Shown: one piece after another, positions 25,701-27,213 of the stretch | How the letters are laid out: each line of letters starts with the position of its first letter | Position numbering within the stretch: the stretch's first letter is position 1 | NCBI RefSeq assembly: GCF_040938485.1 | Contig: NW_027270981.1 | Coordinates: forward strand, 992,001-1,056,000 | From: Diadema antillarum | Lineage: Eukaryota | Reading direction: 5' to 3' | Length of the DNA: 64,000 nt | Program-made: the position numbers

Positions 25701-27213
25701 ATTGCCCGGTATTGTGCTATACGATCCAGTAGGAGGCAAAAACAGTGCCAGTTTTAAGATATGAATGGGGGTCCGATATATGCGAAAATCTTAACTCATG
25801 AGCATGAAATATCCTACCACATTCCTCTTTGGAAGGAGCAGACTGCACCCTCGAAATGGTCCATCCCAACACAGGTGATTGATGCTATGGATCCCTTGTA
25901 GTTCACCGCACATCAGGTTATTGGCAATAGCCTGCAAACAGTATCAATTCTTCACAATATGACTTGTGAATGAATGCATAGAACCATGTTCATGTGTAGG
26001 TCAAGCTGTAACAGATACCTGATGCAAAATGGAAAGCTCTGCTAGCTGTTCTTGCATGAACAATTTCAGAGTACTATAAAAACCATTATTTTTTGCAAGG
26101 TCTATATGATTGACAGTCACTTGAAAGAAATACACTGCATATGTACAGTGTTGTGTCTGTCCTGGAACCTTATTGAGTGTATGAAATGATAGAAAGTGTA
26201 ATTCTGGAAGCATGTTCTCTAGTTACACAGAAATATGATCTAAAATTAGTGCAGACTCATCCATGTGTCTTTAAAGTAATACATGACTGTCAGATTCAGT
26301 TGAGACAGTAATTGAAACTGCAGCTTGATTTCTGATATGTATCCAATGAAGATTTACTTTGTAATTGGTGTTGTATTAAGGAATGTGTCCTGAATGCTGG
26401 CATGAGACCCTCAAAATGCTGTTTCTTCCACTTCCTTTGAAAATTTGACAACAGCATGAAGATCTTTTGGGCAAACAAGCTATTGACAGTATGCAGTCTA
26501 CAAATATCAGATTTCTGTGAGTGCAACGGTAGTCCAGGGAACTGTGTATCCCATGTAGCTGCTTCCAGTTAATTAAGATTACGAATTTCAGCTCTCAATA
26601 AGAGTTTAATACCAAGTTGAAGAGCAATGTGTTTCCACCTTTTGCAGTTGTTGGAACAACTCAACCTCGGTCAGGAAGGATTATATCAGAGCAGTGAAAC
26701 ATGTTTACAGCTGGGGTATTTATATAAAATGCTCAGGTTGATGGCTGTGAGTTATCAAAATTGCTTTCTATATAGTGCTTCTGATACTCACAGTTTCAAG
26801 TTGTTCACAGTATTGCTCATCCATTCCTACAACGACATGCAAGGGTTAAAATGTCCATTAAGCGTCTCAAAGTCCAGAAAGAATTACTGGATATTCATAG
26901 AAAATCAGTACAGTTGGTCAGATGTTGCATCAAAGTGCCTTGATGATTCACTCCTAAGACACTGTAATGGCAAGGAGATGGCTGTAGTTCAAAGGTCAGT
27001 TGGACTTGCCATTAAGATTGAGGCTTGAAGTTGAGGTCCTGCTAGTCTTAGGTGGGATGAGCAAGTGTTGCCCATCTAAAATTGCTGTCCTTTAGACCAG
27101 ATTTAAAATGGAAGCCTGATGTACTTGTGAGAAAGTCTTGACTCATCCACATAAATGGTCTTACCATACTTCTCTTTGCAAGGAGCAGGAAGGGTGCAGG
27201 GATGTATCCAGGA

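What the first reader, a model, noticed from the sequence alone, without database searches (positions are those of the whole stretch)
26296..26443. Ghost seventh TLR: intact acceptor and start codon fused to TLR-B upstream DNA after deletion of the gene body
Seen: TLR-A-like upstream sequence, acceptor and ATG (26403) encode MPAFRTHSL, then switch at ~26375 into TLR-B's upstream module. The result is a 35-codon ORF ending at 26296. The same deletion removed everything of TLR-B's own upstream beyond ~1.25 kb. Inference: the relic acceptor lies upstream of TLR-B's acceptor (25148), so any transcript starting further upstream meets a competing splice site. It could act as a decoy that lowers TLR-B output, or TLR-B may now run from the dead gene's regulatory region.
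Basis: partly seen in the sequence, partly recalled or inferred. Interest (0 to 1): 0.68.

Follow-up and report, generated by a model that had tools for sequence, protein, structure and literature searches.

The report
Dead front end of a TLR gene
A leftover front end of a lost or never-completed Toll-like receptor gene copy sits just upstream of an intact receptor gene in a sea urchin immune-gene array; it is an ordinary scar of gene-array reshuffling, with no sign so far that it does anything.

Summary
At 27189-26375 lies an 815-bp copy of g1's upstream region: 86.9% identity over 827 aligned columns. It carries the conserved AG/leader motif, an ATG at 26403 and 29 nt of TLR coding homology. 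Homology stops at 26375, and g2's own upstream module starts within about 5 nt, itself cut at -1258. The 35-codon ORF is a chance read-through.

- **Deletion not shown.** The whole g1-5'-end-to-g2 interval is collinear with the ghost-to-g3 interval. The relic may therefore be the junction of a roughly 12-kb tandem duplication and never a complete gene. I lean slightly that way.
- **Regulatory idea untested and weakened.** g2 keeps the conserved upstream block in its usual position, as in all six genes. The ghost's own block is half gone, replaced by a 487-bp filler. Whether the "acceptor" is a splice site at all is unproven, because no transcript data were reachable.

This is an ordinary relic of birth-and-death evolution in an echinoid TLR array, and of low interest.

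The parts
27104..27189 (-). Retained 3' end of the conserved upstream block (S2) of the ghost, including a candidate splice donor G|GTAAGA (GT at 27164-27163)
   Evidence: Homology to g1 starts at 27189. The 5' part of the block, present in all six genes, is missing here.
27190..27676 (-). 487-bp filler bounded by poly-C and poly-A runs (looks like a repeat element). It replaces the 2091 bp that g1 has at 14997-17087, which hold the 5' half of the block and the distal segments S3-S5.
   Evidence: homopolymer runs 27221-27245 and 27598-27636
26435..27163 (-). Intron-like spacer of the ghost, about 90% identical to g1's
26425..26444 (-). Conserved motif ATTTTCAAAG|GAAGTGGAAG. It is a putative 3' splice site (AG 26436-26435) or, alternatively, a GGAA-core promoter element.
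   Evidence: 0 mismatches to the consensus; alignment
26375..26434 (-). Relic leader (31 nt), ATG 26403-26401 and 29 nt of TLR coding homology (MPAFRTHSL). Homology to g1 ends at 26375.
26296..26374 (-). Remainder of the 35-codon ORF. It reads through g2's non-coding upstream DNA and is not TLR-derived.
   Evidence: no Pfam family; length is not unusual
25117..26374 (-). g2's own upstream module, truncated at -1258. It keeps the block at 25956-25764 and the AG/leader motif at 25157-25114. It lacks the distal segments S4 and S5.
22318..25116 (-). g2 (TLR-B), an intact 932-codon LRR+TIR ORF
14185..14996 (-). The paralogous counterpart of the ghost: g1's proximal upstream region and first codons
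27677..33791 (-). Spacer between g3 and the ghost. It is collinear with the spacer between g2 and g1 (17088-22317).
   Evidence: 17088-19374 with 27677-29895 at 87.2%; 19588-19984 with 32384-32776; 21557-22057 with 32844-33351

Best explanation
The feature is a dead 5' relic of a g1-type Toll-like receptor paralogue in a Diadema antillarum tandem TLR array.

**What survives (about 815 bp):**
- the tail of the conserved upstream block;
- an intron-like spacer;
- the conserved AG/leader motif;
- the ATG and 29 nt of coding homology.

**How it is joined.** It meets the truncated upstream module of the next gene, g2, at a non-homologous junction (26375/26374).

**How it arose.** It came from array rearrangement. 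My slightly preferred history has two steps:
1. A roughly 12.2-kb tandem duplication of the interval [codon 10 of g1 ... -1258 of g2]. The relic is the duplication junction, so no seventh gene body ever stood here.
2. A later unequal crossover that replaced the 5' part and upstream region of the copied g2, which is now g3.

The alternative is a once-complete seventh gene whose body was deleted.

**Likely function.** In both histories the relic is most likely inert. g2 most likely runs on the proximal elements it has kept. The 35-codon ORF is a chance read-through.

**Shown:** the homology, the breakpoints, both truncations and the collinearity.
**Inferred:** the order and type of events, the lack of function, and the identity of the motif as a splice acceptor.
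For: **Relic and junction.**
- 86.9% identity over 827 columns to g1's upstream region, and 90% over the first 650 bp.
- Homology ends at 26375.
- g2's module begins at about 26369.
- S4 is present upstream of 5 of 6 genes and absent from g2.
- No TLR coding remnant elsewhere: 0 tblastn hits outside the six genes.

**Duplication geometry.** Five collinear blocks link 14185-25159 to 26375-36648, at 78-87% identity.

**Unequal crossing-over is active in this array.** g4 is 98-100% g3-like over its first 1200 nt and 100% g5-like from about nt 1800 onward.

**The array ends at g1.** CFAP337-like exons (residues 237-532 of 1117) lie at 1-9215 on the plus strand. No g2-type module or TLR lies downstream of g1.

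**No second g1-like Diadema protein.** Of 11 proteins with E <= 1e-150 to g1, only the D. setosum orthologue P0007 (95.6-96%) exceeds 78% identity.

**Evidence for decay.**
- The ghost's block is cut and replaced by a 487-bp filler.
- The Met codon that g1 and its D. setosum orthologue use as their start is ACA in the ghost.

**g2 is self-sufficient in the conserved elements.** Its block sits at -611..-791, and its own motif has 1 and 0 mismatches to the two consensus patterns.
Against: **Against the duplication-junction history.**
- g3's upstream region is not g2-like: 60% identity, no better than other pairs.
- The g3 and g2 gene bodies are no closer than other pairs, 76-93% by window.
- An extra replacement event therefore has to be assumed, and it left no direct trace.
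- g5-g6 conversion (97% in one window) blurs any test of whether g3 is chimeric.

**Against 'inert'.**
- No transcript data could be consulted.
- The AG motif, the ATG and a candidate donor (GTAAGA, closer to the recalled donor consensus than the GTAGGA or GTGGGA of the live genes) are all intact.
- All genes lie on one strand, so read-through from g3 could reach the relic.
- g2 is the only gene that lacks the distal conserved segments, so its regulation may well differ from its neighbours'.
Confidence: 0.75

Rival explanations
1. A complete seventh, g1-type TLR once stood between g3 and g2. One deletion ran from its codon 10 to -1258 of g2 and removed the gene body, its 3' flank and g2's distal upstream region.
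For: - The relic carries everything a live gene has from the block's tail to codon 10.
- g2's module is truncated at the same point, as one deletion would do.
- g2-upstream and g3-upstream differ. That follows naturally if the two-gene unit was duplicated by unequal crossing-over between gene bodies, a process seen in g4.
Against: - The crossover version predicts a g2-type upstream module and a TLR downstream of g1. Instead CFAP337-like exons lie there and no TLR-related sequence does.
- The non-homologous version needs three events.
- No intact g1-like second gene was found among annotated Diadema proteins.
Confidence: 0.35
2. The relic acceptor competes as a decoy with g2's acceptor for upstream-initiated transcripts, or g2 is now driven from the dead gene's regulatory region.
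For: - The AG motif is intact with 0 mismatches, and a candidate donor at 27164 is intact.
- The relic is on the same strand as, and 1.29 kb upstream of, g2's AG.
- g2 lacks the distal conserved segments that 5 of 6 genes keep.
- g1 carries the same AAG variant and is an intact gene with a 96% orthologue in D. setosum. AAG is therefore compatible with function, if this is an acceptor at all.
Against: - The ghost's own block, the only conserved upstream island besides the proximal one, is half deleted, and its distal module is gone.
- g2 keeps a full block in the usual position. If the block holds the promoter or first exon, g2 transcripts start downstream of the relic.
- Acceptor identity is unproven.
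- The candidate donor is not invariant: it reads GC in g5.
- No expression data were seen.
Confidence: 0.1
3. The conserved 'acceptor' is not a splice site. It is a proximal promoter element, namely tandem GGAA cores of the ETS type, with CAGGAAGTG recalled as an ETS consensus. On this reading the relic is an orphan promoter with a start codon. It could fire a short upstream transcript into g2's regulatory DNA, giving transcriptional interference or a long leader carrying an upstream ORF.
For: - GGAAG(T/C)GGA is kept in 6 of the 7 copies (g6 reads GGAAGCTAA), and conservation runs to about -120 in g1, g3, g4 and the ghost.
- The coding sequence of most sea urchin TLRs lies in a single exon (PMC3367398, passages read).
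- The polypyrimidine tract before the AG is only modest.
Against: - In g2 similarity to the other genes ends about 18 nt upstream of the AG, and in g5 at -83. That fits a minimal tract+AG+exon unit better than a core promoter.
- A second conserved island at about -620..-930 with a G|GT at its end in 5 of 6 genes fits the layout 'first exon + 0.7-kb intron'.
- The ETS assignment is recalled, not tested.
Confidence: 0.1
4. Assembly artefact: a false join in a repeat-rich, highly heterozygous genome.
For: The published D. antillarum assembly retained both haplotypes and is repeat-rich (PMC13511894, passages read).
Against: - The junction joins unrelated sequences rather than lying inside a long near-identical repeat.
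- The relic is 10-13% diverged from g1, far above the 2.52% heterozygosity reported there, so it is not a mis-placed allele.
Confidence: 0.03

Closest known systems
Fragmentary TLR pseudogenes in sea urchin TLR arrays (Buckley & Rast 2012, PMC3367398)
   Same: It is a non-functional piece of a TLR gene lying inside a tandem array of single-coding-exon LRR+TIR genes. [quoted passage not shown]
   Different: That survey counted only sequences with an intact TIR domain, so a 5'-only stub like this one would not have been listed. Here both breakpoints are mapped to within a few nucleotides and the parental paralogue is identified. The species and TLR clade differ: the closest non-Diadema hits are only about 38-43% identical.
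Truncated gene copies at the edges of tandem segmental duplications (unprocessed partial pseudogenes)
   Same: The relic keeps the upstream flank and the first codons, and ends at a non-homologous junction. The flanking 7-12 kb is collinear with the parental interval. No poly-A tail or loss of the intron-like spacer suggests retroposition.
   Different: The other end of the presumed duplicate, g3's 5' part and upstream region, does not match g2's. A simple one-step duplication therefore does not explain the present array.
Vertebrate TLR gene layout: non-coding first exon(s) plus one large coding exon (recalled, not tested here)
   Same: There are two conserved upstream islands. One lies about 0.6-0.9 kb upstream and ends in G|GT. 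The other is a short T-rich tract plus AG, 31 nt before the ATG. This holds for all six genes.
   Different: No transcript evidence was available. The candidate donor is weak (GTAGGA or GTGGGA, and GC in g5). The sea urchin literature that I read speaks only of the coding exon.

Membership tests
Toll-like receptor genes (the six neighbours that define the array) | Leucine-rich-repeat ectodomain | tested here: met
   LRR_8 E-values from 1.6e-77 to 7.9e-89 in 6 of 6 ORFs
Toll-like receptor genes (the six neighbours that define the array) | C-terminal TIR domain | tested here: met
   A TIR and/or TIR_2 family reaches its Pfam cut-off in 6 of 6 ORFs. TIR is above its cut-off (21.3 bits) in 5 of 6, with g6 at 20.4 bits. 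TIR_2 is above its cut-off (28 bits) in g2 only. g6 therefore rests on sub-threshold matches plus 100% identity to an annotated Diadema protein.
Toll-like receptor genes (the six neighbours that define the array) | Signal peptide and single transmembrane helix | tested here: inconclusive
   Hydrophobic N-termini and a hydrophobic stretch before the TIR domain (alignment) were seen by eye. No predictor was run.
Unprocessed partial pseudogene (5' gene relic) | Homology to a parental gene that covers the flank and the start of the coding sequence | tested here: met
   86.9% over 827 columns to g1's upstream region plus its first codons
Unprocessed partial pseudogene (5' gene relic) | Rest of the coding sequence absent | tested here: met
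   Homology ends at 26375. tblastn found 0 TLR hits outside the six genes. The 35-residue ORF has no Pfam family.
Unprocessed partial pseudogene (5' gene relic) | Not transcribed or translated into a functional product | not testable with these tools
   No transcript data or eukaryotic DNA collection was reachable.
   The AG is kept in 7 of 7 copies and a short T-run precedes it. The tract is only moderately pyrimidine-rich. g1 and the ghost have AAG where the others have CAG.
   There is only a candidate donor at the end of the conserved block: GT in 5 of 6 genes and the ghost, GC in g5.

The most novel reading that the evidence does not exclude
The relic is not silent. Read-through from g3, or initiation in the relic's remaining upstream DNA, would yield transcripts that use the relic's AG or ATG. 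These would run into g2 as a long leader carrying an upstream ORF. g2 has also lost the distal conserved segments that the other five genes keep. A rearrangement scar would then have given one receptor of the array its own dampened or differently timed expression. That would be a cheap route to regulatory diversification inside an immune-receptor array.
Probability: 0.08. Interest if true: 0.45.

Novelty: new member of a known kind. Interest (0 to 1): 0.2.

Why it matters
The relic on its own matters little, because fragmentary TLR pseudogenes are expected in echinoid arrays.

It has some use as a dated, base-resolved rearrangement scar. Together with the chimeric g4, it shows how this Diadema array grows and decays: non-homologous junctions occur alongside unequal crossing-over. 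It also marks g2 as the one gene whose upstream module was cut.

Diadema antillarum has suffered repeated disease die-offs (PMC13511894, passages read). A curated map of which TLR copies are intact, chimeric or regulatory oddities would therefore help later immunogenomic work.

Tried and rejected
- **Second ghost elsewhere.** Motif searches found only the six genes and this relic on the gene strand.
- **Partial copies of the conserved block** at 51322-51448 and 60804-60931. They lie at comparable places upstream of g5 and g6 and have no ATG motif. I take them for an older shared feature, not relics of the same event.
- **Coding potential of the 35-codon ORF and neighbouring mechanical ORFs.** No Pfam family was found, and the length is ordinary.
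- **RNA families.** There is nothing in the relic. The only hit is a marginal tRNA match at 11139-11211, which ARAGORN did not confirm.
- **Testing whether g3 or g2 is a chimera from windowed identities.** This was inconclusive. The TIR-coding third is 85-94% identical among most pairs, and g5 shows a g6-like patch.
- **Intact allele or orthologue of the ghost among proteins.** None was found. P0002, on the 512-kb contig, is at most 78% identical to all six genes and its N-terminus differs from the ghost's, so I do not take it for the missing gene.
- **Literature on a 5'-UTR intron in sea urchin TLRs.** I found nothing relevant. Buckley & Rast mention no UTR (0 occurrences).
- **DNA of the other haplotype or of D. 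setosum.** It could not be examined.
- **Supplementary tables.** They are closed. Tables S1 and S2 of PMC3367398 (TLR coordinates and classes) may bear on how common 5' stubs are.
- **Spliced or joined models.** None was built or searched.

Full report
**What the window is**

Six long minus-strand ORFs of 919-945 codons lie at these coordinates:

| Gene | Coordinates |
|---|---|
| g1 | 11439-14198 |
| g2 | 22318-25116 |
| g3 | 33792-36629 |
| g4 | 40195-43029 |
| g5 | 46971-49769 |
| g6 | 55921-58716 |

All six carry leucine-rich repeats and a C-terminal TIR match, so they are Toll-like receptor genes.

The organism is the sea urchin Diadema antillarum.
- g6 is 100% identical to an unnamed database protein, P0003, on a 2.17-Mb contig.
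- g2 residues 263-932 match 'toll-like receptor 4 [Diadema antillarum]' (P0008, on a 512-kb contig) at 663 of 670 positions.
- g1 and g3 have D. setosum orthologues at 95.6% (P0007) and 96.0% (P0004).

The published assembly retains both haplotypes, and heterozygosity is 2.52% (PMC13511894, passages read). That fits P0008 being the allele of g2 on the other haplotype. This is inference.

On the minus strand an ATG at 26403 opens 35 codons (MPAFRTHSL...) that end with a TGA at 26298-26296.

- The region 27189-26375 matches g1's upstream region 14996-14185 at 86.9% over 827 columns.
- Over the first 650 bp upstream of the start codon, ghost and g1 are 90% identical. Other pairs score 59-68%, apart from g3/g4 at 100%.
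- A 20-nt motif, ATTTTCA(C/A)AG|GAAG(T/C)GGA(A/T)G, matches the ghost without mismatch. It has 6 matches at up to 3 mismatches, against 0.05 expected; g6 falls just outside that cut-off.
- The leader+ATG motif is found at all six genes and the ghost on the gene strand. There is one 3-mismatch site on the other strand, and 0.23 matches are expected by chance.

Homology to g1, and to every other gene's first codons, stops after ...CATTCCTTAAT at 26375.

**The junction also truncates g2's upstream module**

- From about 26369 downward, the sequence aligns to g3's and g4's upstream regions: 26369-26329 with 38024-37981, 81%, E 0.003. It is collinear with further weak matches down to g2's ATG.
- I took five conserved segments of g3's upstream region as probes. 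S4 lies just distal of the breakpoint equivalent. It is present upstream of g1, g3, g4, g5 and g6 (5 of 6 genes) and absent upstream of g2 and the ghost. S5 is present in 3 of 6 genes.
- At most a few bases (AAT or AATA) could be microhomology at the junction. Given the divergence of the only proxy, that is a guess.

**The ORF means nothing**

- Only its first 29 nt are TLR-derived. The rest reads through g2's non-coding DNA.
- It has no Pfam family.
- 316 of 2302 ATGs outside the TLR ORFs (13.7%) open at least 35 codons.
- No other TLR coding fragment exists in the window: tblastn gave 0 hits outside the six genes.

All six genes share a conserved block of about 200-330 bp, 0.6-0.9 kb upstream of the ATG. 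It sits at -611..-791 in g2 and at -621..-930 in the other five.

- In the ghost, homology to g1 begins only at 27189, inside this block. Just the last 62-86 bp survive.
- Upstream of that point a 487-bp stretch bounded by poly-C and poly-A runs (27190-27676) stands where g1 has 2091 bp (14997-17087). Those 2091 bp hold the rest of the block and the distal segments.
- Homology to g1's locus resumes at 27677.
- The dead gene's 'regulatory region' is therefore itself gutted.
- The Met codon from which g1 and its D. setosum orthologue start is ACA in the ghost. g1's own first ATG is AAG. The ghost's 'intact start codon' may not be the one its lineage used. This is inference.

**Deletion or duplication junction?**

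The self-comparison shows that the whole interval from g1's codon 10 through g2 is collinear with the interval from the ghost through g3:

| g1-to-g2 interval | Ghost-to-g3 interval | Identity |
|---|---|---|
| 14185-14996 | 26375-27189 | 86.9% |
| 17088-19374 | 27677-29895 | 87.2% |
| 19588-19984 | 32384-32776 | 77.9% |
| 21557-22057 | 32844-33351 | 81.5% |
| 22056-25159 | 33535-36648 | 83.0% |

This is the geometry of a tandem duplication of [14185..26374]. Its junction would automatically create a g1 stub fused to g2's module cut at -1258. In that case no seventh gene body ever existed at this site.

The difficulty is that g3 should then carry a g2-type upstream region, and it does not. Identity is 60%, no better than other pairs, and the gene bodies are no closer than other pairs. 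A later unequal crossover that replaced g3's 5' part must be assumed. Such crossovers do happen here: g4 is 98-100% g3-like over its first 1200 nt and 100% g5-like from about nt 1800.

The deletion history also needs at least two events.
- In its most economical form, unequal crossing-over between g2 and g3 duplicates a two-gene unit, and a deletion follows.
- That form predicts a g2-type module and another TLR downstream of g1.
- Instead, exons of a CFAP337-like WD40 gene lie at 1-9215 on the plus strand: residues 237-532 of the 1117-residue D. setosum protein P0124, in 7 tblastn segments. Nothing TLR-related lies there.
- Of the 11 proteins matching g1 at E <= 1e-150, only the D. setosum orthologue exceeds 78% identity. 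No intact 'seventh' g1-type gene is annotated in either Diadema species.

I therefore lean to the duplication junction, at about 0.5 against 0.35. The window alone cannot settle it.

**Is the 'acceptor' an acceptor?**

For:
- The AG is kept in 7 of 7 copies, preceded by a short T-rich tract and followed by a 31-nt conserved leader.
- In g2 similarity to the other genes ends only about 18 nt upstream of the AG.
- The upstream block ends in G|GT in 5 of 6 genes and in the ghost. That would give introns of about 670 nt in g2 and 730 nt in the ghost.

Against, or open:
- The candidate donor is weak (GTAGGA or GTGGGA) and reads GC in g5.
- The tract is only moderately pyrimidine-rich.
- The motif also reads as tandem GGAA cores of the ETS type. 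That is a recalled consensus, not a test, and it would make the motif a proximal promoter element.
- The sea urchin TLR paper I read says only that most coding sequences lie in a single exon, and it never mentions UTRs (PMC3367398, passages).
- A literature search for a 5'-UTR intron in these genes found nothing relevant.

No transcript data or eukaryotic DNA collection was within reach, so this stays open.

**What this means for the regulatory idea**

g2 retains both conserved upstream islands, the block and the AG/leader, in their usual positions. If the block holds the promoter or first exon, g2's transcripts start downstream of the relic, and the relic's AG is irrelevant to them. The relic has lost most of its own block and all distal segments, so it is a poor source of a promoter for g2.

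What remains possible is read-through from g3, which lies on the same strand 7.4 kb upstream, or weak initiation within the relic. Either would give a long leader with an upstream ORF. I put this at about 0.1. The one solid regulatory fact is that g2 alone lacks the distal conserved segments.

**Comparison with what is known**

[quoted passage not shown] They counted only those with intact TIR domains.

The ghost is one such fragment, of the 5'-only kind, mapped to the base and tied to its parent paralogue. It is a new instance of a known kind of thing and is not surprising to a specialist.

**Unchecked**

- the other haplotype;
- the D. setosum locus;
- RNA-seq;
- long-read support for the junction;
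- supplementary tables, which are closed.

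Noticed in passing
40195-43029 (g4), compared with g3 33792-36629 and g5 46971-49769: g4 is a chimera. It is 98-100% identical to g3 over its first 1200 nt, and 100% over the 650 bp upstream. It is 100% identical to g5 from about nt 1800 to beyond the stop. g3 and g5 are only 78-94% alike. This is a recent unequal crossover between g3 and g5 that added a gene.
   Followed up: partly
1-9215 (+): Exons of a CFAP337-like WD40 gene lie here: residues 237-532 of the 1117-residue D. 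setosum protein P0124, at up to 100% identity, in 7 tblastn segments. No exon for residues 533-1117 is found in the remaining 55 kb. The antisense TLR array may therefore sit inside a large intron of this ciliary gene, or the gene may be interrupted.
   Followed up: partly
14211-14213 (g1): g1 has AAG where the other five genes and the ghost have the conserved ATG. Its ORF starts five codons later (MHSLM...), as does its 95.6% orthologue in D. setosum. g1 and the ghost also share CTC instead of ACC before that ATG.
   Followed up: partly
36594-36629 and 42994-43029 (g3, g4): A 12-nt insertion in the leader puts an upstream ATG in frame and adds 12 codons (MYGITRDHFEGT). The D. setosum orthologue P0004 begins the same way, with one residue different.
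   Followed up: no
51322-51448 and 60804-60931: Extra partial copies of the 3' half of the conserved upstream block lie further upstream of g5 and g6. They are 76-78% alike and have no ATG motif nearby. They are possibly much older relics or part of the ancestral unit.
   Followed up: partly
22318-25116 (g2) versus protein P0008: The annotated allele on the 512-kb contig is only 670 aa and starts at g2's Met263, with 663 of 670 residues identical. The N-terminal 262 codons may be broken on that haplotype, or the model may be partial.
   Followed up: no
g2 and g6 versus D. setosum proteins: g1 and g3 have 96% orthologues in D. setosum. The best D. setosum matches to g2 and g6 are only 75-80% identical. 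The genes with the g2/g6-type upstream module may be missing or unannotated there.
   Followed up: no
49852-49865 and about 50507 (g5 upstream): A 14-base homopolymer run cuts g5's proximal conserved island at -83. g5 reads GC where the other genes have the candidate donor GT.
   Followed up: no
11139-11211 (-): A marginal Rfam tRNA match (31.2 bits, cut-off 29) lies about 230 bp 3' of g1's stop. ARAGORN did not find it. It is possibly a tRNA-derived repeat.
   Followed up: partly
20246-21246; 4552-5375; 6142-6952: Long tandem arrays with periods of 158, 168 and 262 bp. The 158-bp array lies in the g2-g1 spacer and has no counterpart in the g3-ghost spacer.
   Followed up: no
47671-47970 approx. 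(g5) versus g6: One 300-nt window of g5 (alignment columns 1800-2100) is 97% identical to g6, against 77-88% elsewhere. This looks like a gene-conversion patch.
   Followed up: no
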